Assembly: GCA_951406725.2 (NCBI GenBank) | Contig: OX597815.1 | Span: forward strand, 133,424,001 to 133,488,000 | Direction: 5' to 3' | DNA from: Octopus vulgaris | Taxonomy: Eukaryota | DNA: 64,000 bases | Shown: positions 25,924 through 60,666 of the stretch, piece after piece | How positions within the stretch are numbered: position 1 is the first letter of the stretch | How the letters are laid out: each line of letters starts with the position of its first letter | Notes under the pieces: model-generated | The model's database searches: none | Told to the model about the DNA's origin: nothing | Seen by the model: only the letters and a program-made list of their open reading frames with translations | Translations under genes and position numbers: made by a program

Positions 25924-26699
25924 GGATTTTTTCCAACGGCACTTTTCAACACAATTTCTAGTTAACTAAACACTTTTAAACTTCGTATACTGGTAGAATG
26001 TGTTTATAAAACATCATTTTCTCTTGGCTTTATTGAGAAAATTCTATAGGTTGTAACATATTTCGTCTAAAATTTCTTGCATTTCAGCAATTTTAACCAA
26101 TCGCTGACCTCCATTTAGGTAAATAACATTCTGTGCATAATGAATATGTCTCTCCTTTAAGAAACAGGTTGGGTTTATTTACATTTGTGAAGAAAAAAGA
26201 TACCCTTCCCCCACCCCTAACCCTAATCTAAAATAGACTGAAATGCAATAGATCGATACTAGGGTTATAATTATGGGTGACAATTTCATACGACACCGCT
26301 ACGGAAAATGGGATTTTTTTCTAGCGGTGTCAAATGAAAATGTCACCCATAATTATGGCCCTATTATCGATCTATTGCATTTCAATCTATTTTAGATTTA
26401 GGGTTTGGGGAAGGGTATCTTTTTTCTTCACAAATGTAAATAAACTTAATCTGTTTCTTAAAGGAGGGACATATTCATTATGCACAGAATGTTATTTACC
26501 TAAATGGAGGTCAGCGATTGGTTAAAATTGCCGAAATGCTCGAAATTAAAGACGAAATATGTTACAACATATAGAATTTTCTCAATAAAGCCAAGAAAAA
26601 ATGATGTTTTATAAACACATTTTACCAGTATACGAAGTTTAAAACTTTTTAGTTACCTAGAAATTATGTTACAAAGTGCCGTTCAAAAGAAAAAGATCC
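25924..26699. mobile_element. Near-complete foldback element (GGAT...ATCC family) with 8-bp TSD
   Basis: Arms of about 380 bp with a very short spacer; perfect TSD GCAGTGTT at 25916-23 and 26700-07. Confidence 0.9.
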
Positions 26700-28039: not shown

Positions 28040-31000
28040 AGTGTTGAACATGCTCGAGATGTTGTGCAAGAAATGAATTGTCAGAACAAAATAGTCTGCC
28101 CTCCGGTTTTTATTGCTACATGCCTAACATGTATACTACTAGTTGCTGTTGAACAAGAACCTCAAACAGAAGGATATGACAGGCAATATCCATAACAATC
28201 TCCATCTCATGTGATGGTGAGCAGATCAATTTGGATCAGTTCAAAACTTACATCAGGAGTTGACCATCACTACCTGGCAGCTATTCGAGTAGCCAAATTT
28301 GGTCCCATCTCAGCTAGATTGCAACAACATACAGTAGCATCTGTTTAGAGTTCAGAATAAATAGCCACTTTTAAAATTCTTTTATATTGCACACTAGTCT
28401 ACCAAGGTTGTTCCTTTTCCTGTATGCTTTAGTACTGGAGTCTTTACTGTAAAGGTTGGAGGTCGTTGAAAAGCATCTCATGCAAACTGATCTGTATATG
28501 CAAGCCATGTCACTATCATGATGATTCCATACTGGAATAGTATCAGGTTATGTGAGCATGTATCAACCAGGACAAATCAATGGGTTTGCATCTCAATACC
28601 TAGAGAAGTTCATGCCAGCTAGTTTAGGCTTCTGTCACTGCTTGGGATGTAGTTCAAACAGGATCTCCACATGGAGAAAAACTGGGAATCTGTCTGTGAA
28701 AGATCAAACCAAAGTGGTTAATGCTTACATTGCACCATGCTTTGGCTGGGGAAAAATCTGACCAGAATATAGCATATCAAGAGATTTACTTGCTGCCATC
28801 AGCTACTCAATAGTTGTCTTAAGATACCATTGCTAATGAGGTGCAGACACCCATTGAGGTTGACATATTGGTAAAGTTAACCAAAATGATAGTGAACAGG
28901 GTTTGTTGCCATTCATGAAGCACATCTTTCACCAAGCTTCAATCCTTGGTCAAGCACAGACTACAGTTGGGTGTTTGACATCTGGATTGTTGCCAGAAAC
29001 TCTACTAGCTCAGTCAATGAAATCAATAAAAAGTCAACCTTTGTACACTATAGACAATATTCATGGAGGGACTGTGCAACAATATCATCATCATCATCAT
29101 CATCATCATCATTTAGCGTCCGTTTTCCATGCTAGCATGGGTTGGACGGTTCTGCTGGGGTCTGTGAAGCCAGAAGGCTTCATCAGGCCCAGTCAAATCT
29201 GGCAGTGTTTCTACGGCTGGATGCCCTTCCTAACGCCAACCACTCCGTGAGTGTAGTGGGTGCTTTTTACGTGCCACCCGCACTGGTGCCAGCCAGAGCT
29301 GGCAAACGGCCACGAACGGATGGTGCTTTTTATGTGCCACCGGCACGAGGGCCAGGCAAGGCTGGCAACGAACACGAAACGGGGCGGTGCTGGCAACGGT
29401 CGCGAAACGGAAGGTTCTCTTACATGCCACCGGCACTGGTAACACATCTGCAATTTCCATTGATCGATTTCCATTCTGATCCTCACTTGCCTCAATGGGT
29501 CTTCACAAGCAGAGTTTCGACATGCCACCGGCACTGGTAGCACATCCGCAATTTCCATTGATCGATTTCGATTCTGATCCTCACTTGCCTCAACACGTCT
29601 TCACAAGTAGAGTTTTGTGTCCCAAGAAGGGAAGGTATGCATACGTAGGCTGGCTCCATCCCATGTAGAAGGCCACGGGTTGTGGACTCACTTGTCCTGC
29701 CGGGTCTTCTCGCGCACAGCACACTTCCAGAGGTCTCGGTCTCTAGTCATTTCCTCGGTGAGACCTAAAGTTCGAAGGTCGTGCTTCACCACCTCGTCCC
29801 AGGTTTTCCTGGGTCTGCCTCTTCCACAGGTTCCCTCAACCGCTAGGGTGTGGCACTTTTTCACACAACTATCTTCATCCATTCTCGCCACATGACCATA
29901 CCAGCGCAAACGTCTCTCTTGCACACCACAACTGATGCTTCTTAGGTCCAGCTTTTCTCTCAAGGTACTTACACTCTGCCGAGTGTGAGTACTGGCATTA
30001 CACATCCATCGGAGCATACTGGCTTCATTTCTAGCGAGCTTACGCATATCCTCAGCAGTCACGGCCCATGTTTCACTGCCATGTAGCATGGCTGTTCGTA
30101 CACACGCATCATACAGTCTGCCTTTCACTCTGTGCGAGAGGCCTTTTGTCACCAGCAGAGGTAAGAGCTCTCTGAACTTTGCCCAAGCTATTCTTACTCT
30201 AGCAGTTACACTTTCAGCACACCCGCCCCCGCTGCTGACTTGGTCACCTAGGTAACGGAAACTATCAACTATTTCTAGTTTTTCTCCCTGGAAAGTGACA
30301 GAAGTTGGTCTCAGAGCATTTTCAGTGTTTATTGTTCCTGAGCATCTGCCACATACAAAAACCATCTTCCTAGTTAGCCTTCCTTTGACATTGCTGCATC
30401 TCTTATGTGTCCATAGCTTACACTTGGTGCATCTTATAGAGTTTCTACCTACACCTTTTCTACAGATCGAGCAGGGCCATCTACCTGAAGGTGTTTGTGA
30501 TTTGTCTACCTTCCTACTGATTACGACTTTGGTTTTAGCTAGATTGACTCTGAGGCCCTTCGATTCTAATCCTTGTTTCCACACCTGAAACTTCTCCTCC
30601 AGTTCTGATAGCGACTCAGCAATTAGAGCAAGGTCATCAGCATAGAGGAGCTCCCAAGGGCATCCTGTCTTGAATTCCTCCGTTATTGCCTGGAGGACTA
30701 TGATAAATAGGAGGGGGCTGAGTACTGAGCCTTGGTGGACCCCTACCTCTACCCGGAATTCTTCACTGTACTCATTTCCAACCCTCACCCTACTAGCGGC
30801 GTCCCTATACATGGCCCGCACAGCTCTCACTAACCATTCATCTATCCCTAGTTTTCTCATTGCCCACCAGATAAGGGATCGGGGGACCCTGTCGAAGGCT
30901 TTCTCCATGTCAACAAAAGCCAGGTACAGGGGCTTATCTTTGGCTAGGTATTTCTCCTGCAGCTGCCTTACCAGGAATATAGCATCAGTAGTACTTTTCC

Positions 31001-46930: not shown

Positions 46931-48182
46931 TTTTGACCATAAAGTGGATTTTAAAATGGTGATGACAAGGAATGTGCCCAAGCGCAACTTATTTACACAG
47001 TGGTACAAGATTGAGAACCCAACAATAATGATTAAAGTCCCGATACATTATGGGTTATAACTAAGGTGAATTGGTTGAATTGTTGAGTCAGGTAGATTAC
47101 ATTGTATTATTCACACAGGCTCTTTGGGTTCAAATATTAGTGAGGTCAGTTTTTTTCATCACTCACTACATCAGGCTCTAGCCCAATCTCTAACAATCTG
47201 TCACTCACCTCCCACATTCTTATGAAATTACCCACCCTTTCCTTTCCGCCTGATCCAAATTATATTCTTTCTTATACTTACTTTCTTGTGTTTTGAGAGT
47301 ATGCTCTGGCACCCTGTCATCATCATCTTTATCTCCTTTCCAGCTACTCTCACTCATCTTTGCATAATGCAGAGTAGCCATGTTAGATACTATGTTTGTC
47401 CTTTTTCTACACTTTAGCCTTCAACATCTTGCATAAATCTACCTCTTCCTCCTTCTCAAATACACTCCCATTCAATCAATGGGGCTCTTTCCTTTTTCTT
47501 TACTTTGTCTTGCAAGTTACTTCCAGTGTCATATAAAAAAAAAAAGGCATCCAGTACACACTAAAAAATGATTGGCATTAGGAAGGGAATAAATCTATAG
47601 AAAAACTGCCAAAGATGGCACTAGGGCCTACTGCACTCCTGTGGCTTGTCAGATCCTGTCAAATCTATGCCAGAATGGAAAACAGACATTCAATGATGAT
47701 GACAACCACGATAACAACAGTGACAATGGCAATGATAATGATGGTCCTTCTGGAGTCAGTAAATAAAGTGTTGATTCTTCTCCCCCCCCCTCTCTCTCGC
47801 TTTTTTTCTTTTCAGAAGATATCATCTATAGTCAGCTGGAGAGGGATGGGTTGTATCAGGTTAGTCTAAAAATGCTCAAGACAGCTGAATATTGTGACAG
47901 CAATCCTTACAATTCTATCAGAAGTTGAGGACCCAAGGAAAGGCAATAAATAAAGTATGTTGAAGTGATTCTTATAGTTGGTATAACAAAGTCACTTCAC
48001 TCAGGCCACAAATGAAGTAAAAGGTCCTGAATCAAAATTTGAAACCTGGAAAGCATGACCCTGGTTTAACACAAACTTACTGAACATCTTTTCTCCATTG
48101 TTTGTCATATCATACAATTGTAATTTTCGAAAAAATTTTATCAATGGCCAGCATATTAAAAAATACCTTTAAAGGTTAAATT

Positions 48183-48367
48183 TATAAACAACTTATAAAA
48201 GAGGGCAAACGAAAAAATTTTCTAATGCCAAATATACCGAAATTAGACACATTGTCCGTAACCATTATAATTATAAAAATTATAATGGTTACAGACAATG
48301 TGTCTAATTTCGGCATATTTGGCATTAGAAAATTTTTTCATTTGCCCTCATTTATAAGTTGTTTATA
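48183..48367. repeat. Inverted repeat with about 90-bp arms
   Basis: TATAAACAACTTATAAA...GTAACCATTATAATT and its reverse complement, with few mismatches. Confidence 0.85.
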
Positions 48368-48371
48368 TATA

Positions 48372-49066
48372 TGTTTTTACTGAGATCTCCCTTTTAGTAG
48401 AAAGAATAGCTATAACTCTTTGACTGCTATTTCTAAATTCGGTGTGTGGTGAGGCAATTCGTTGCTAAACCCTTAATTGCTTAGTATTACTTAAATTTTC
48501 CTCGAATGAGGCTTTTACATGCCGAAATCTACTTGGTGTAATTAATAATTATTCCAAATGAATTAATTTCACCCTTTATTATTACTGATAACCATATTTC
48601 ATCCCAGTAAATGACCACAGCATCTTGTCTTGGCTACACGCGGGTGGGAAGGGGCTGGTGATACAAACTTTCATTCACACTTTGAATTTCGTGGTACTGG
48701 TAATGGCTTTAGCTCGCTCTGATACTGAGTTGAGATGATGCCTTCTAGTATCTCAAAATTTGATATACAATTATTCATAATTGTAGTGTCCTACGCTGAT
48801 GAGAAAAGAAGTTGGGTAAGGTAGAATTATCTAATTCTTATGCTTTCCTAAAACTTGATTTCGAAACGTACGCCCATAGGTGACTTAAAATTGTATGATA
48901 GATTGCCGTCATTTCATTCTCTCTTACCTGTCTGTGTTTGCCTTTCAAATGCTGTGTTTTTACTGAGATCTCCCTTTTAGTAGAAAGAATAGCTATAACT
49001 CTTTGACTGCTATTTCTAAATTCGGTGTGTGGTGAGGCAATTCGTTGCTAAACCCTTAATTGCTTA

Positions 49067-49070
<4 letters not shown>
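48372..49070 (+). mobile_element. Terminally redundant non-coding element (Penelope pLTR / retrozyme-like)
   Basis: 116-bp direct repeats at 48372-48487 and 48955-49070, identical by eye; TA-repeat flanks; internal hammerhead-like core. Confidence 0.65.
48786..48884 (+). ncRNA. Degenerate type I hammerhead ribozyme motif
   Basis: CCTACG-CTGATGA-G...long stem II...C-GAAA-CGTACG-CC-CATAGG; U16.1 is replaced by C and stem I has one mismatch. Confidence 0.55.
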
Positions 49071-50646: not shown

Positions 50647-52591
50647 CATTCATATATTTTACAAATATTTTAATTTCTAGGCACAAGGCTCAAAATTTTT
50701 TGGGAGGGGGCCAGTCGATTAGATCGATCCCAGCTGGTAATAAATTTATTGACCCCGAAAGGATGAAAGGCAAAGTCGACCTCAGCGGAATTTGAACTCA
50801 GAATGTAAAGACAAACGAAATGCCGCTAAGCATTTTGCCCGTCATGCTAATGTTTTTGCCAGCTCGCCGTTTTGCTCAAGACCAAAATGCATCATGTTAC
50901 CTTTCATATGACTGGTAACACTGTAAGTATGCTTCTGCTACAACAGGTAATATCAGGAAATATGGCATACGTACTCTAATTATAATTTGATTTTTATCAA
51001 ATTTCTTGATGCACATGCAAATGATTAAATGAGTGCTAATTTTCAAAAGAAAAATATTCATTCCTTCTCCTCCTCCTCTTCCTCCTCCATCCATATGATT
51101 ATTTCTTACTGTGTGTGTGTGGGGGGTGCATTCCTTTACTCATTAATTGCCCCACTCAGCCTAGTCTATGTACTCATTCTGTACCTCTTATGTTGACTTT
51201 CTCTGTATCTTTCTTTTACTCTCTCTCTCTCTCTCTCTTTCTCTCTTTGTCTCTCTCCAATCCTCCAATCTATTGTATAATTAGGGAATCAACCAACCAA
51301 CCAACCAACCAACCAACCAGCCAACCCACAATTTATATCAGCTATTATTAAATAGAGACACGAAGGTGGCAAGCTGGCAGAATCGCAAGCACGCCGGGCA
51401 AAATGCTTAGTGGCATTTCATCTTTCTTTACATTCTGAGTTCAAATTCCACCAAGGTCAACTTTACCTTTCACCCTTTCTGGGTCAATAAAATAAGTTCC
51501 AGTTGAATACTGGGTCAATGTAAAGTTGCTGGCCTTTTGCCATAATTTGGAAACCATTATTAAATAGAGACATTTAAAAGTTAGCCATTTGGCCAACACA
51601 ATATGGTATTTAGTTTTATTGTAAATGGGAAATTGAAGCCCTGCCAAAATACTCGTTATCTTGCTCCCCTCTATCAAACAATCATTAAAATGAGTACCAG
51701 TAATTATATTTGGTAAATCCCCCTCATACATTCACACACCACCTCTTGTACAAAAATTGACATAACTACTGATTGGTGCACATGTGACTTAGGTTCCTCA
51801 TAACTTTAATTCTTTGAAGTGTTTCAGCTTTAAAACTGCGGTCATGCTGGGACACCACCGTTTCTAGATGGGCTAAATCCTGGATGTACTGCAATACCAG
51901 GTCAACACATGGCAAAGGTGGAGCAAGCCCCTAATTCTTCTCTCACTTCTAAAAATCAGTTTAATATTGATGGTCCCAGGTAGGGACCATATTGAATATC
52001 TTAGCCAAAAGGGTGGGAAGCATATTTTCCAATGAAATTTTTCAGGGATGCATTTTTGAGAGTATAGATTACAGTTATGTTGATGGCACTAAACAAATTT
52101 TCCTTGACAGTGTTTTGAACCAGTCTCCCTTGATCTCGACTGTTTCCTCCCAACTCTCTTGAAAAAAAAAATTAATGGCAGTTTGCAAAAATATGCTTTC
52201 AAAAGTGAAGATGACAATTATGGTGATGTATCAAACACACGAAAGTCCCCCACCCTCCCACCTCCCAAAAAGGAAGACAAAGAAAAAATAAGAAAAGAAA
52301 AATGCTGAAAAGTTACGGAAATAGGTGGAAACAAAGTTGGAGCCGGAAGAATGATCATTCTCAATATTTGCTTTTTAAATTCCATGAATACAATTGTAAT
52401 TGAAAATGTACTTGTAGCGAGGCAAAAGAAGCCAGTGCTATTTTGAACAAGATCTCGCTGGTAGCCATTGCTAGAATGAGATCTCGCCTGCAACCATTTA
52501 CTATGCGCAAGACAACAACGAGATTCTTGCCGGCAACCAGTATTTAAGCAAGAAACCAACAACATTCACTCTCTCATTCCTTCTCACGCTT

Positions 52592-53418
52592 TACATAGTG
52601 TTCGTATTAATTTGGTGTATTTGCTGATTGTGTGAAGAATTGGTGGCTGTTTTGTGCTGCTTTACAGCAGTTTTCTGATTGTGCTTTCTCTCTGCCTTTA
52701 AGGAGAGTTAGTCATGGCAATGGTAAAGAATATGTTCTATTTGGACCTTAGTGGGTCTGAATTGTCCTCTACGGAGGAGGAGCTTGTATGAGCAGTTGAT
52801 AAGATAGACAAGTGCTTAAGGAAGAAAAGTTTTGCGGAAGTGACAGAAGTTACAAAAAAAGAGGTGGACCTGACAAACATAGAAAAATATAAGAAGATGG
52901 CATGTAGGGTAGGTGGTGACGTTAGTTGTCACCAACCCAGAAAGTATTGGAAGAGATGGATAAGAAAACTATAGTATACAAAGTGTATTCTGTGTAAGAA
53001 AGAAGATAGAAAATGTGGAAGCAGAAACAATAGAAAAGGCGTTGCGCTTCATTTGGCAAGACGTAACATTTCTTGCCAGAGGAAGTAAATACGGAACAAT
53101 TGTGGTCCATTTCAAGACAAGGAAAAGCAAAAGAACATGCTGTAACCACAGTAAAGTTAGATAAAGTGGTCCTTCTACCCACTTATCGGATCTTTTCTGT
53201 TTGATGGACGGAATTTTCTAGTTAACTAAAATATTTGAAACTTCGTATACTGGTAGAATGTGTCAAAAGAAAACATTATTGTAAACAAAATTGTAATTTG
53301 TAACTTAAACGTAGTTTAATTTTACGAATTTTAACCAATGAAATCCCAGCATTTCTGCATTATCGATATTGATAAAGAAATATAGCAGACGCACGACACA
53401 CACACACACACACACACA

Positions 53419-53453
<35 letters not shown>

Positions 53454-55341
53454 AAACACTTGCATATACATTCGCACAAGCACATAGTAATTAATATATA
53501 AGCGTACACACACATACAAACGGACATATACATACACACACATACGCACACAAGCATACATACACGTTCGTGAGTTGCCCCTTGCCGTAACAAATTTACA
53601 CAAAAGGTAAATAAACCAGAAGGGGGGGTGTCAATGTTTCATCGTTTCGGGGTCGATAAATTAAGTACCAATTACGCACTGGTGTCGAGGATTTTTTTCC
53701 CAATTTATATCACAGCTTCCGACAAGCTGGGGCATCCTTTTATGAAAAAATATTTCGCAAATTTTTACAAATGGCGGTGCCCCAGCATGGCCACTGCTCG
53801 TGAGCTGAAACTAGATAAAATAAAAAATAAAAATAATACGACTCACACTCCACGCGCAAACTCTAGACCGATTTAGGCATTTGTTTTGTTTTTGTTGTTT
53901 CTGGCCCTTCAAAACCATGGGAAAAGCCTTTTCGGTAAAAAAAATAAAGAAAATATAAAAAAAATATCGTTAATATTTTTATTGGGTGACGAAATTCATC
54001 GATTTAAGAGATATAGCTGTTATTTCTAGCACATGTAGAAGACAGAAGACAGACGAGAGAGAAAGGATGAATAGGACGTGTGCGTGTGGGTTTTTAGACG
54101 CAGCAAATAATTTGAGCTCGAATGCTGCGATTTCATTGGTTAAAATTCGTAGAATTAAACTACGTTAAAGTTACGAATTACAATTTTGTTTTCAATTTTG
54201 TTTACAATAATGTTTTCTTTTGACATATTCTACAAGTATACGAAGTTTCAAATTGTTTAGTTAACTAGAAAATTCCGTCCATCAAACAGAAAAAATCCCA
54301 CTTATCTTGGAAGAAGGACTTCCAGAATTAGGGTGGAGGGAATCCCACCAGAAATAGATGTGGTTTGGGTTGTGGCAGCTGTACTTCTAGGAAATAAAGA
54401 AGAAATAGCCATCCTCCAAGCTACAAAAACAGAAAATTTGATATGGAAAGGCCAAACACTGGACCTGATCATACACGGTACTGCAGAAACACTGGAAAAT
54501 ATGGTGGAAATGGTGACTATTGGAGATGTAGTGTTGAGAGTGTGGCTGGAGGGCAGAACCCCTCGTTGCTTTAAATGTGTCCAAAACGGTTGCATTAGAG
54601 CACACTGCCCTCTACAGAAGCAGAGAAGTCAGGAGGTTGTTGGAAAGGAGCTGGAGAAGGTGCAACAGGAAGAAAAGAGAAACGAAGAACAGTGGTTGGT
54701 AGCTGAAAGAAGAAAAAGGAAAAGGAAGAAAGAACAGAGTGAAGTAGAACCCCAAACCATACCTACCCCACTCATACCCTCTCAGACCCACCCTCTCCCA
54801 ACAGACACCAAATCCACCCATTCCCCTTCTACACAAAGCAAGAGAAAAAAGAAATACAAGCACACAAGGATCAACAAACTCTCCATCCAACTGAAAATTG
54901 CTTCGCGTGTATGATGGTTGAAGGCGTGGACAATAAACTGTTTAATAAGATAACAAAATGGAAGACAGCAAGATTTGTCCATGTCAAAGGATGGACAAAC
55001 ATTGATGGATGGCACTCATGTGTTCTGGTATCTGAAAACCAAAAAGACGAAATATTGACATTCAAGAGGGGTTATAAGTGTTGGAGGGTGATTTGTGATT
55101 TAAAGACGATACCAGACAATATAAAGTTCAAGAAGCTGACCAAGAAATATGGTATAGACATTTTAAAGGACTCGGAATTTAAAAGATAAAAGGAAGCAAG
55201 TAATGCTGCTCGAGGTGAGGCAAGTAGCTCATTTTCATTATCATTTTCATTATATCATTCATGTATATTATACGTTTAAATTTTATATTTTTTCGTTTTT
55301 ATATGTCCCCTCCTTGGCGCATTGTATGTAATAAAAAATCA
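52592..55341 (+). mobile_element. ORF1-only (HAL1-like) Tx1/L1-type non-LTR element, copy A, in the Gypsy 5' LTR
   Basis: One disrupted ORF from ~52713 to ~55189 with a VEG-x-x-P-R-CFKC..GxIRAHCP knuckle; no endonuclease or RT; ends AATAAAAAATCA; 22-bp TSD TCTCTCATTCCTTCTCACGCTT (52570-91 and 55342-63). Confidence 0.8.
53188..54298. mobile_element. GGAT...ATCC family element interrupting the ORF1-only retroelement
   Basis: TIRs of about 150 bp; perfect TSD CACTTATC (53180-87 and 54299-306); removing it restores the reading VLLPTYLGRRTS. Confidence 0.9.
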
Positions 55342-55665
55342 TCTCTCATTCCTTCTCACGCTTACGCTGAGAAATACTGCATAGTCAGCAGCTAACAGTG
55401 GACTCTTGTCCCGCTCTGACTTCACATGCTTATCTCCAGAGGTAATGAACCTTACATGTACGGAGTTAAAACAAACCAGGCGCTGCTATAAAGATGGTCA
55501 CTGAGAGAGAACCATATGAACGAGAACTCTGTAAATAAACAGCTATTGAATTGTACTCCGTTTGTGAACTTCTTCTTCGTGTTCCAGATCCTTGAGACTA
55601 CAAAATGATGATAATGGGAGAAGGAGATACTCCACAGGTATCATAAACTTCCATTCCATTATAAA

Positions 55666-58600
55666 ATGGTGATCCCGATCAAAAAACGAATTTTCGGCAG
55701 CCGAAAGCTTTATCGTTGTAGATGCCTCACCCAAACTACAGAATGGCAGTCTTCACTCGCATTCTTAACTAAAGATCAACAAACAACAGCTAAACCTTTT
55801 GTACTGCGGGATGCCTTCACCTCTTGCACGCTCAGCGAAAGAACTCATCACTGACCCACATCCGGACGCGACTTACGCGTCCGTCAAATCCGAGGTTCTC
55901 CGTCGGAACACAATCCTCGGAGAGTAAATTCCGAACATTGATGCAGGATGAAACATCTGAGTTTCTTCGTCATTTGCGAGAACTCAGCGACACTCCACTT
56001 AAGGACAATCCTCTGCTTAGGAAATTGCTTTTCTCTCGTCTACTGCCGAATGTCCAATCGATACTGGCCACAACGGCCGACTCCAATTCGCTCGATCATG
56101 GCAGACAAGATCATAGTTTACTATGCAGCCCGCACCTCATACCTGTTCGGACCCCGTAATAGCTTCCTCTACTACCCCAAAGTCTCCTACCTCGTCACAT
56201 GACAACATTTTGGGGAGAGTCGATGCATTAACACGTCGCATGGACACACTGTAGTGAGAACTCAATAGCTCTTGTCGTCCTTACAACACAAACTGTTCTA
56301 AGTCACGGCCGTCTACTTCTACTCCAACGGTTTCCAGTCTCAGCTGGTGGTACCATGCCACATTTAAGGACAAAGTCCGTCGATGCATCCAGTCCTGTTC
56401 GTTCAAGCTGTTGGGAAACTTGTTGCGGAAGATTTGGACACGTCAAATTCTTCCCACAATTTTTCATCTCATCGTGCATTCTTTGTTAAGGATCGTGTGT
56501 CTAACGAATAGTTCATGGTTGACACCGGATCTAGCTATTCTATTAGGCCTTTGCGTCTTACTTCAGACAAGCCGAAGCAATCTGCCATTAACCTGCACAC
56601 GGTGAATCTATCCCTGATAAAAACTTACGGTTAGGTCTCATTAAATCTAGATCTCAACCTTCGAGGGGATTTTAGGTGGGTTTTTGTTGTAGCAGATCTA
56701 CCGTACCCCATTCTGGGCGCGGAATTCTTAAATTCTTAAACCACTATCACTTATGAGAAGACGTCAGGCAACAGAGACTCGTGGATGATTCTACGTCTTT
56801 GTTTACGCCCACTCGGGTTACTACTAATGCTGTTCTCGACCCGTCAATTTTTACCGCTACTGCTGGTGACCAGTTCCACTCCCTGGCTTCTTTCCCAGAA
56901 CTGGTAGATCCGACTTTCAACTCTGTTAAAGTCACACACTCGACTTGCCATTATATCACTACTTCTGGACCACCCGTCTTTTCACGTCCACGGCGACTCG
57001 CCCCTGATCGGCTCAAAACGGTTCGATCTGAGTTTGAGCATATGCTTCAACTCGGCCTTATTCACCCCTCCACCAGCCCTTTGGCATCTCCTCTACATTT
57101 GGCATGGAAAGGGGATTCAGATTTTCGCTCGGCGGGGGATTACAGACGTTTGAATGCGATTACTGTTCCCGATCGCTATTCTATAAGGAATCTATAGGAC
57201 TTTTCTTCAAACTTGCATAGTTGTACTATTTTTTCCAATGTTGACCTCATCCGGGCTTATCATCAGATTCCGATGAACCCTGACGACATTCCCAAAACTG
57301 CCGTTACCACCCCTTTTGGGAGTTTTGAGTTCCTGCTTATGAGCTTCGGTTTGCGGAATGCAACGAGCATATTCCAGAGGTTTATTGACGAAGTTGTCCG
57401 TGAGTCAATCAAGAAGGAAATAGCGTCTGTTCCTCTGCTTGCACATCCGGTTCCTGATGCTCGTCTCTCTTTATCAGTTGATGCATCGCATTCTGGGGTT
57501 GGTGCTGTTTTACAACATACCGTCGATAATCAGGCTTCACCTTTGGCATTTTTTCCCTCGTCAATTAAAGCCAGCTGAACGTCGTTACAGTACGTTTGAT
57601 CATGAACTCTTAGCGATCTATCTGTCGGTTCATCATTTTCAACATCAATTCGAGGGCCGAGATTTTGTGATTTATACCGATCACAAGCCTCTTACGTTTG
57701 CTCTGTCATCTAAATCGCACAAACACTCGTCTCGTGCTTTTCATCACCTGGACTACATTTCCCAGTTCACAAGTAACATTCGGCATATACCTGGAACAGA
57801 GAACGTACCTGCTAACACACTCTCTCATCTCTCTGTGTGTTCTCTTTCATCTCCTGCTGCAATCGATTTAACTGCCATTGCACAGGATCAGCCAGCTCTG
57901 GACACATTGGATCTAACTTCTACCAAGTTGTCCTGTTGCAAGTTTACCTATCTTCCACTTCCATCTGCTGAAGGTACAATCCTTTGTGACAAAGCTAATG
58001 GTTCTCCCAGACCATTTGTACCTAAAAACCACAAGCATTCCGTTTTTGATGCTTTGTATTCACTGCCACATCCTGGCATTGCTGCCTCGGTGAAGTCTAT
58101 TACGGCTCGGTTTTTTCTGGCTTAATATGCACCAGATGATCACTGCTTGGGCACGCTCTTGTGTGAAATGCCAGCGTTCTAAAATCCACAGGCACATTCG
58201 CGCTCCTCTTGGACAGTTTTCTCCGCTGGAGACCCGCTCTTGCCATGTCCACATTGATCTGGTTGGACCATGGCCTGTCAGTCACAGTTTCTCTTTCATA
58301 TTGACATTCGTCGATCGTCTCTCTCGTTGGCCTGAAGCCATTCCTGTAGCGGGTGGACATTTCTGCTGAGTCAGTCGCTCGAGCTTCCTTTTCTAACTGG
58401 ATTGCTTGCTTTGGTGTCCCAGCTAAAATAAACATTGATCGTGGACGCCAGTTCGAAGCTTCCTTATTTCGTGAATTATCATGAATCCTAGACGTTCATC
58501 ACATTCGACTAGCTACCGTCCAGCTTCTGACGGGATGGTCGAACGTTTTCACGAGCAACTGAAGGCTGCTGTACACACCACTCCTGATCCGCAGTCTTGC

Positions 58601-58962
58601 CTATTGTTCTTCTTGGTCGTCGCACTGTTGTTAAGACAGATTTAGGTGTCTCCTCTGCCGAACTCTTTTATGGTACCACTCTGGCACTTTCTGGTTCAAT
58701 GTTAGCGCCAGACAATTCATCGCATCCTGATCCAACGTCGTATGTCACCAGACTTTGCTCGTATTTCTCGAGTCTTCCACCCATGCATCCACGTGACTAG
58801 TCTATTCCCTCTTACGCCCGACCGGACATTGACAAATGGACTCGTGTTTTTGTTCGGAATGATTCTGTCAGAGGACTGCTCGTTTCTTCCTATAAAGGAC
58901 CAGTTCGCATTCTATCGCGCACACCCAAAACTTTTAGTCTCGACATCAATGGTTGGGCAGAC
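55666..58962 (+). pseudogene. Gypsy gag-pol pseudogene (gag, protease, RT with internal deletion, RNase H, integrase)
   Basis: Protease FMVDTGS (~56512); RT DYRRLNAITVPDRY, AYHQIPM and KTAVTTPFG; the YxDD region is deleted at ~57400; RNase H DAS..GVGAVL, ELLAIY and TDHKPL; integrase HPG..CVKCQ and HIDLVGP. Confidence 0.92.
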
Positions 58963-60282
58963 ATGATGAAAGAAACCATTGTTTACAAAGTATATGCGGT
59001 AGAAGAAAAAAAGGTAGAACAAGTTGAGGCAGAAATATTTGTGAAAGCGTTAAACTCGGTACACAAGGATATTGCGTTCATGTCTAGAGGAAACAAATTT
59101 GGGACAGTAGTTGTCCAATACAAGACAGAAGAAATAGCAAGGAGGCAGGCAGGAAACACAATAAAGGCAAATAAAGTGGTACTACTGCTCACGTACCTTG
59201 GAAGGAGGACGTCACTGATAAAAGTCGAGGAAATCCCACCAGACATAGACGTGGCTTGGGTCGTGGCGGCTATCCTTTATGGAAGCATAGAGGAGGTGGC
59301 CGTCCTCAGAAACTGAGGAAGCAAGATAGAAAGGGGAGAAATTAGAACTCGTGGTGCAGGCAGATATGGAAACATTGGAAAAGTTAGCTGAAACAGTAAC
59401 CGTGGGAGAAGTGATTCTGAGAGTATGGGTGGAGGGCAGGATACCTCGGTGTTTTAAATGTGGCCAAGAAGGCCACATTAGAGCACACTGCCCTCTGCAG
59501 AAGCCAAGTGCAGAAAAGGTAGAGAAGTCTGAAAAGGAACAAGAGGTGCAAATGGAGGAAAAAGAGAGATATGAAGTATGGAGGATGTATGAAAAAGAGA
59601 GAGAGGAAGTATGACAGAGGGAAGACGAAAGAAAAGGAAGAAAGGTCAATATGAAGTGGAACCCCAAGCCATCGCCACCCCACCCACACCTGCTGAGACC
59701 CACTCTCTCTACGCAGATACCAAACCCACCCGTTCCCTTCCTTTACAAATTAAAAAGAAAAAAGAGGAGAAACAGACGTAAAATACAAAAAATCTCCTCC
59801 CCAGTGAAACAAGATATGTATGTGCATTAACGGATGATGCGGATGAGGAACTGATCAATGAGGTGACTGGGTGGAGGACAGCAAAATTTGTGGATATGGA
59901 GGGACAGGCAAGTAGAGTGGGTTAGGACTTCTGCGTGTTGGTATCGCAATGTCAAAGGGATGCAAATGTGAAACATAAGAAGGGACATAAATACTGCAAG
60001 TTGGACATGGACCTAAAAAGATACCAGTAAGAATACGGTACGAGGTACCAAAAGATAATTTTGGTCTGGACATGCTAAAAGTAACAGGACTAAAAAAAAA
60101 GTAAGCGACGCTGCTAGAGGTGGGGCTGGCAGCTCATTTTCATTTAATCATTTTTCATGAATCATACATGTTGTCATATGTTAATTTTGTTTTATTTTAT
60201 TTTTAATTTTTGTGTTATATGTCCCCCACATGTGTTTGTATTGTCCCCTCCTTGTTGGCGCATTGTGTGTAATAAAAAATCA
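58963..60282 (+). mobile_element. ORF1-only element, copy B (5' part deleted), in the Gypsy 3' LTR
   Basis: ORF pieces homologous to copy A with an intact CFKCGQEGHIRAHC knuckle; same 3' junction AATAAAAAATCA|TCTCTCATTCCTTCTCACG. Confidence 0.8.
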
Positions 60283-60666
60283 TCTCTCATTCCTTCTCAC
60301 GTTTACGCTGAGAAATACTGCGTAGTCAGCAGCTAACAGCGGACTCTTGTCCCGCTCTGAATCCACATGCTTATCTCCAGAGGTAATGAACCTTACATGT
60401 ACGGAGTCAAAACAAACCAGGCGCTGCTATAAAGATGGTCACTGAGAGAGAACCACATGAACAAGAACTCTGTAAATAAACAGCTATTGAATTGTACTCC
60501 GTTTGAGAACCACTTCGTGTTCCAGCTCCTTGAGACTACAAAATGATTATAATGGGAGAAGGAGATACTGCACAGGTATTATAAACCTTCCATTCCATTA
60601 TCTACTAATGCAAAATGTCAATTTAAAAACATGTATTTTCCAGAAAGTTACAGGGAAACAAACTCG

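What the first reader, a model, noticed from the sequence alone, without database searches (positions are those of the whole stretch)
52413..60602. Candidate site-specific parasite of a Gypsy element: two divergent ORF1-only LINEs at the same base of both LTRs
Seen: copy A (52592-55341) lies in the 5' LTR with a 22-bp TSD. Copy B (58963-60282) ends at the identical junction AATAAAAAATCA|TCTCTCATTCCTTCTCACG in the 3' LTR. The shared LTR segments are about 95% identical, but the inserts differ at 26 of 100 hand-aligned nt (54301-54400 vs 59192-59291), many at synonymous sites. Known: LTRs and anything inside them are identical at integration; Tx1-clade LINEs are often target-specific (Tx1L targets another transposon); HAL1 elements encode ORF1 only. 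Inference: these are two independent insertions by different subfamilies of a non-autonomous element that targets this LTR sequence. I do not know a described example of this combination.
Basis: partly seen in the sequence, partly recalled or inferred. Interest (0 to 1): 0.85.

Follow-up and report, generated by a model that had tools for sequence, protein, structure and literature searches.

The report
LINE family landing at promoter starts
Two different copies of a short, ORF1-only retrotransposon family sit at the same base of both ends of one Gypsy element; the family is not tied to that element but often lands about 30 bases after a TATA box in unrelated sequences, which likely lets it borrow other elements' promoters.

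Summary
Observation confirmed; interpretation partly wrong. A and B are independent insertions from two subfamilies of an abundant ~1.65-kb ORF1-only LINE family (dN/dS 0.18, dS 1.36; monophyly of LTR-inserted copies rejected). The site is recurrent: 6 of 54 other sampled copies sit at it, and 26 of 28 other LTRs are empty. But the family is not LTR-specific: it also hits one base in a mariner-like transposon, a second repeat and many other sites, with no consensus at the cut. The shared feature is a TATA box 29-33 bases upstream, in sense: 6 of 11 discovery targets and 6 of 10 blind-fetched targets after a written prediction (background about 5%, P 4e-6). An APE-RT L1-clade element with homologous ORF1 and the same 3' tail is the likely mobiliser. 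The 95% LTR identity likely dates a later gene conversion: both inserts are about 6% old and share a tail found in no other of 259 tails. TSS position and TBP tethering are inferred; 9 of 21 targets lack the TATA, and an initiator motif is not enriched.

The parts
52409..52412 (+). 4-bp target duplication of the Gypsy element, left copy (right copy 60603-60606)
   Evidence: family TSD length
52413..52569 (+). 5' LTR, part upstream of the insertion site (inferred U3)
   Evidence: matches empty LTRs
52541..52548 (+). TATA-like box, first base 29 nt upstream of the TSD start; kept (at most 1 mismatch) in 22 of 26 empty LTRs
52570..52591 (+). 22-bp TSD of insert A, 5' copy; inferred to begin at the LTR's transcription start
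   Evidence: TSS inferred
52592..55341 (+). Insert A: full-length ORF1-only LINE (about 1.64 kb without the nested element); decayed ORF1 about 52714-55189 with two RRM-like domains and a CCHC knuckle; ends 6 nt after its AATAAA, no poly(A)
53188..54298 (.). Nested inverted-repeat element (MITE-like, 8-bp TSD) that interrupts A's ORF1
   Evidence: (I2, I5)
55342..55663 (+). 5' LTR, part downstream of the site (inferred R-U5), beginning with the second TSD copy
55664..58960 (+). Decayed Gypsy internal region (RT and RNase H pieces; many stops and gaps)
58961..60282 (+). Insert B: 5'-truncated copy of another subfamily, joined to pol across a deletion
60245..60602 (+). Inferred conversion tract: last ~38 nt of B plus the 3' LTR part 60283-60602, matching about 55306-55663
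   Evidence: (D3)

Best explanation
A and B are independent insertions of an ORF1-only LINE family that is likely mobilised by an L1-clade partner and whose insertion point often lies about 30 bases downstream of a TATA box, in sense, which would place it at the start of RNA polymerase II transcripts such as this LTR's. Shown: structure, independence, recurrence at fixed bases in several unrelated targets, TATA spacing, a partner with homologous ORF1 and the same tail. Inferred: the partner's APE-RT nicks at the start site and primes reverse transcription; the second nick about 20 nt further makes the 14-24 bp TSD; the copy is then transcribed from the captured promoter and ends at its own AATAAA, which would cut off the host transcript. 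I favour tethering to TBP/TFIID or the pre-initiation complex as the ruler (about 0.45); direct reading of TATA by an element protein is not excluded. Each LTR has a copy of the promoter, so both could be hit. A later conversion between the LTRs likely homogenised the inserts' tails and the downstream LTR part.
For: Blind test, rule written first: of 20 copies fetched by rank, 11 had a clear TSD, giving 10 distinct targets; 6 of 10 had TATAWAWR with at most 1 mismatch starting at -33..-28 against 4.4-5.4% background; P 4.3e-6. Over 20 targets the -33..-28 bin held 12, every other 6-bp bin from -99 to -4 held 0-2. No base consensus at the cut. TATA kept in 22 of 26 empty LTRs. Filled LTRs are scattered among empty ones; LTR-inserted copies are not one clade (p-AU 3.8e-7). 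A vs B: dS 1.36, dN 0.24 over 130 codons. Partner: Exo_endo_phos, RVT_1, zf-RVT, closest solved protein human L1 ORF2p (E 2.5e-40), ORF1 36% and 47% identical to family pieces, same tail. Some copies carry another target's duplicated site as a 5' leader (L139, L266; L271 versus L279), as expected if transcription starts in the donor's host sequence. Conversion: a tail variant found only in A and B among 259 tails, end branches 0.061 and 0.063 versus 0.016 and 0.039 for the LTR pair; another element's LTRs differ by 1% although its internal frames are broken up.
Against: 9 of 21 TSD- or junction-defined targets fail the rule (discovery L099, L118, L144, L147 and the ORF1-fragment repeat; blind L264, L266, L275, L276). 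Both 5'-truncated blind copies fail. The L270 hit is at the edge (-33) and its upstream flank is a repeat that ends at the site, so it may be chance (then 5 of 9). The partner's main site (28 of 39 ends) has only 2-mismatch TATA-like words at -30 and -37 (empty site read). An initiator motif is not enriched at the junction (11 of 123 flank kinds versus 5-13 in later bins). Family-like tails also join fixed internal positions of a SINE (17 and 5 of 267 ends), with no TATA logic. Related copies tend to share a target (5 changes; 8 of 2000 shuffles as low), which TATA alone does not predict. No start-site data. 9 of 20 blind copies were dropped for lack of a TSD. The blind set comes from younger subfamilies than A and B.
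Confidence: 0.65

Rival explanations
1. Homing by co-transcribed flanks: each subfamily carries bits of its donor site at the RNA ends and returns to the same sequence by base pairing; TATA spacing only reflects that founders needed a promoter.
For: Lineage-target fidelity (5 changes, 8 of 2000 shuffles); five sister pairs share a target; PMC4494074 notes that co-transcription with a target can strengthen specificity (passage).
Against: Close siblings L204 and L275 (96%) have different targets; copies with a foreign leader sit in new targets; the A clade spans LTR, mariner-like and other sites; L203's TATA-spaced target is single-copy.
Confidence: 0.15
2. Several sequence-specific endonuclease lineages (Tx1-Mar-like), each with its own transposon target, mobilise the ORF1-only copies; the first reader's LTR-specific parasite is one of them.
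For: Precedent in crocodilian Tx1 families that prefer mariners or LTR elements; B-type copies B, L091 and L092 are all in this LTR; the sampled partner is concentrated on one site (28 of 39).
Against: Both A-type and B-type clades hit both LTR and mariner-like sites; 123 flank kinds among 261 ends; no consensus at the cut; the TATA peak holds across unrelated targets.
Confidence: 0.12
3. One ancestral capture copied with the Gypsy element, then recombination or conversion swapped the body of one insert.
For: A and B share a unique ~38-nt tail; B's upstream junction is a deletion, so its TSD cannot be seen.
Against: 26 of 28 other LTRs are empty; filled ones are scattered on the LTR tree; B-type copies occur at the same base in two other LTR lineages (L054, L062), so B needs no A ancestor.
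Confidence: 0.06
4. Generic preference for TC-rich or AT-rich tracts (Kibi/Koshi-like), or misassembly.
For: The LTR site is TC-rich; the genome is about 65% AT.
Against: Other targets are not TC-rich; TATA words peak in one 6-bp bin only; the junction recurs at six other loci.
Confidence: 0.02

Closest known systems
HAL1 (half-L1)
   Same: Non-autonomous L1 derivative that encodes only ORF1p (PMC5753468 passage).
   Different: Here ORF1 is of the two-RRM plus CCHC type; many subfamilies, a shared defined 3' end without poly(A), fixed insertion bases and mixed tandem arrays. The HAL1 paper itself was not held.
Crocodilian Tx1-Mar, Tx1-8_Crp, Tx1-4_AMi; Xenopus Tx1
   Same: L1-group LINEs that insert into other transposons, including mariners and LTR elements; tandem insertion; possible reliance on flanking promoters (PMC4494074 passages and section 15).
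   Different: Those are described as family-by-family sequence preferences. Here one family uses many unrelated targets tied by TATA spacing. Supplementary figures of that paper were not opened, so a promoter position of those sites is not excluded.
Dictyostelium TRE5-A
   Same: APE-RT LINE with position-specific, not sequence-specific, insertion; its ORF1 binds TBP, Brf1 and Bdp1 (PMC5911963 passages).
   Different: Pol III genes, 44-54 bp upstream, opposite orientation; here TATA promoters, at the inferred start, in sense.
Yeast Ty3
   Same: Integrates at the transcription start; needs TBP and Brf1.
   Different: LTR element with integrase, Pol III genes.

Membership tests
HAL1-like ORF1-only LINE | Encodes ORF1 only, no endonuclease or RT | tested here: met
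   Single ORF of about 450-470 aa in intact relatives; ORF2 hits in 0 of 30 and 1 of 60 loci; fold search gives tandem RRMs
HAL1-like ORF1-only LINE | ORF1 homologous to that of an autonomous L1-group element | tested here: met
   36% over 227 aa and 47% over 105 aa
HAL1-like ORF1-only LINE | TPRT marks: variable TSD, 5' truncation, fixed 3' end | tested here: met
   TSDs mostly 14-24 bp, truncated copies; no poly(A) tail in most ends
HAL1-like ORF1-only LINE | Mobilised in trans by the partner's ORF2 | not testable with these tools
   Inferred from shared tail and shared arrays
L1 group (partner) | ORF1 plus ORF2 with APE, RT and zinc finger | tested here: met
Tx1 clade (partner) | RT groups with reference Tx1 elements | tested here: inconclusive
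   Homologue search returned mostly unnamed proteins; no named Tx1 reference was available, no RT tree built
Single-target site-specific LINE (Tx1-Mar type) | More than 20% of flanks in one target (criterion in PMC4494074) | tested here: not met
   LTR 6 of 54; mariner-like 7-10 of 54. The partner alone meets it for another repeat (28 of 39)
Position-specific LINE (TRE5-A type) | Fixed distance from a promoter element, no consensus at the cut | tested here: met
   12 of 21 targets
Position-specific LINE (TRE5-A type) | Element protein binds the transcription factor | not tested
   No complex prediction or binding data
Gypsy LTR retrotransposon (host) | Paired LTRs, short TSD, RT-RNase H, integrase downstream | tested here: met
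   integrase position read from the translation, label partly recalled

The most novel reading that the evidence does not exclude
A LINE system that is steered by the Pol II pre-initiation complex (TBP/TFIID) to the transcription start of TATA promoters with near base precision, captures the promoter, truncates the host transcript and can hit transposons and host genes alike: a Pol II counterpart of Ty3 and TRE5-A.
Probability: 0.42. Interest if true: 0.92.

Novelty: new variant of a known kind. Interest (0 to 1): 0.76.

Why it matters
Target-specific LINEs are usually explained by an endonuclease that reads a sequence; the position-specific cases I found in print use Pol III factors. A LINE measured from Pol II TATA boxes would be a new targeting rule, would mark germline-active promoters in the fossil record of this genome, and could be a programmable start-site integrator. 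It also predicts a transposon-on-transposon silencing route. The locus further warns that LTR-LTR identity can understate age.

Tried and rejected
ORF1 had no homologue in the 5.8-billion-protein search and only sub-threshold zf-CCHC in Pfam; the Atlas gave CCHC/ZCCHC3-like clusters at 0.90-0.93 (a lead). The C-terminal domain alone folded poorly and matched nothing above Z 3.7: inconclusive. Initiator enrichment: not found. RNA: no RNA holder listed on record; contigs from four runs covered both sides of a young array junction and cannot show a start. My guess that L093 and L144 hide a second TSD at TATA+30 failed: neither string was found downstream. The idea that ACATGG is the partner's own 5' motif was dropped: it is the duplicated target. 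The mariner-like piece had no Pfam hit; 'mariner-like', 'piggyBac-like', 'second LTR-like repeat', 'SINE', 'hAT-like MITE' and 'octopus' are recalled labels, as are the TATA and initiator consensus words. Earlier scan notes: none. Literature searches that found no description of a TATA-spaced LINE; subscription journals and Repbase Reports are outside the library.

Full report
Observation. The structure is as described. A has a perfect 22-bp TSD; B ends at the same base of the 3' LTR. A contains a nested 1.1-kb inverted-repeat element, so the LINE is about 1.64 kb. B lacks its 5' part and about 630 bp of host upstream (distance taken from an undeleted relative; junction). A 4-bp duplication flanks the whole Gypsy element and fits the family's TSD length. 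The genome is 2.8 Gb in 227 contigs; its SINEs look octopus-like to me (recalled, no call shows the organism).

Independence. A and B differ at 233 of 982 aligned bases, with dS 1.36 and dN/dS 0.18 over 130 codons in three ungapped blocks. On a tree of 30 copies they fall in different strongly supported clades; holding the six LTR-inserted copies together is rejected. Of 30 LTR loci fetched, 4 are filled (two are the window's) and 26 are empty (10 further hits were not fetched as LTR loci). Filled LTRs have empty sisters across the LTR tree. So this base was hit repeatedly by different subfamilies.

Dating caveat. Both inserts have end branches near 0.06, like their siblings and like the LTR family (median 0.066), while the two LTRs are only 0.016 and 0.039 from their node, above a stem of 0.032. 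The last ~38 nt of A and B share a variant found in no other of 259 tails. A conversion that ran from the inserts' tails through the LTR explains both (inferred). A second element has LTRs 1% apart yet only 157- and 428-aa open frames inside, which fits the same process.

The family. A 167-aa piece drew 11,701 first-look candidates (not a copy number). Intact relatives encode one protein of about 450-470 aa with predicted tandem RRMs and a CCHC knuckle. Copies end six bases after an AATAAA, mostly without poly(A). Young subfamilies form mixed head-to-tail arrays of up to 14 or more units; two arrays end on an element with a homologous ORF1, an APE-RT-zinc-finger ORF2 and the same tail. This is the likely mobiliser; Tx1 versus L1 was not resolved.

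Targets. From the searches with A's and B's 3' ends, 66 sites were listed, 60 fetched, 54 had a readable end. Six are at the LTR base, seven at one base upstream of a mariner-like ORF (three more begin on its duplicated site), two each in two other repeats, and the rest were unclustered. What the targets share is upstream: a TATA box about 30 nt before the TSD start, same strand. In the discovery set, chosen partly by eye, 6 of 11 target kinds met the rule. I wrote the rule down, fetched the top 12 and top 8 new hits of two searches and scored them: 11 copies had a clear TSD, 10 kinds, 6 met the rule; 9 copies without a TSD were dropped. Background is 4.4-5.4%, P 4.3e-6. Among full-length blind kinds 6 of 8 met it, among truncated 0 of 2. 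In 20 pooled targets the signal is confined to one bin (12 versus 0-2; 5 on the other strand, as TATA words are near-palindromic) and the cut has no consensus; the ORF1-fragment repeat, a miss, was not in that call, giving 12 of 21.

Results against. L270's flank is a repeat that ends at the site, so that hit is doubtful. The partner's favourite site (28 of 39 ends) has only weak TATA-like words. Initiators are not enriched. Family-like tails join internal SINE positions. Related copies share targets more than shuffles allow, so subfamily history, co-expression in time or RNA-flank homing adds to the TATA rule. No transcription start was measured.

Mechanism. Shown: spacing, orientation, TSD size, defined 3' end, foreign leaders on a few of 22 copies examined (no formal null). 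From established TPRT: the first nick marks the TSD start. Inferred: that point is the start site; the ruler is TBP/TFIID or the open complex; the copy uses the captured promoter and ends the host transcript at its own AATAAA; repeated insertion at the same distance builds arrays, though several array joints lack a TSD and may come from template jumps or multimer RNAs.

Literature. Seen: PMC4494074 (12 passages and section 15), PMC5753468 (8 passages), PMC5911963 (11 passages), PMC13282606 (first third and a term search: counts 13 recently active L1-Tx1 families, no mention of targets or HAL1). Other papers: listings only. No supplements were opened; the repeat library of PMC13282606 and the target figures of PMC4494074 may bear on novelty. 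ORF1-only LINEs and transposon-targeting Tx1 elements are known; a TATA-spaced Pol II rule was not found.

Verdict. Real feature, reinterpreted: new variant of a known kind, interest 0.76; 0.92 if TBP-guided start-site insertion is confirmed (probability about 0.42).

Noticed in passing
G000:C1:142938000-142966000 (L187-L189, L221); also C8, C14, C2, C4 (L181-L186, L190-L191): Long head-to-tail arrays that interleave at least three young, often intact ORF1-only subfamilies in front of an autonomous LINE.
   Followed up: partly
L199:2300-2630 and flanks L223-L262: A very abundant repeat that carries a decayed ORF1 fragment of this same family is the main landing site of the partner; coding letters of that fragment spell TATA-like words upstream of the site.
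   Followed up: partly
L039, L041, L283 (G000:C7:110535039-110540652): Gypsy copy whose LTRs differ by 1% while the internal frames are broken up; suggests recent LTR-LTR conversion.
   Followed up: partly
window:53188-54298 and window:60667-61330: Two related inverted-repeat elements, one inside A (8-bp TSD), one just after the 3' LTR; short matches also near 25955 and 26600.
   Followed up: no
L108, L150, L139, L179, L184: Short repeats ending in the family's tail join two fixed internal positions of an abundant SINE; perhaps a SINE partner of the same LINE.
   Followed up: no
L203 (G000:C18:50344494): Young copy with an intact frame at a single-copy TATA-spaced site; candidate host-gene promoter insertion.
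   Followed up: partly
window:48372-48487 and 48955-49070; 48180-48370: A 116-nt exact direct repeat and a 93-nt near-perfect hairpin upstream of the element.
   Followed up: no
window:9000-12000 and 29000-31000: GC-richer stretches with a composition like the Gypsy internal region; possibly further LTR-element remains.
   Followed up: no
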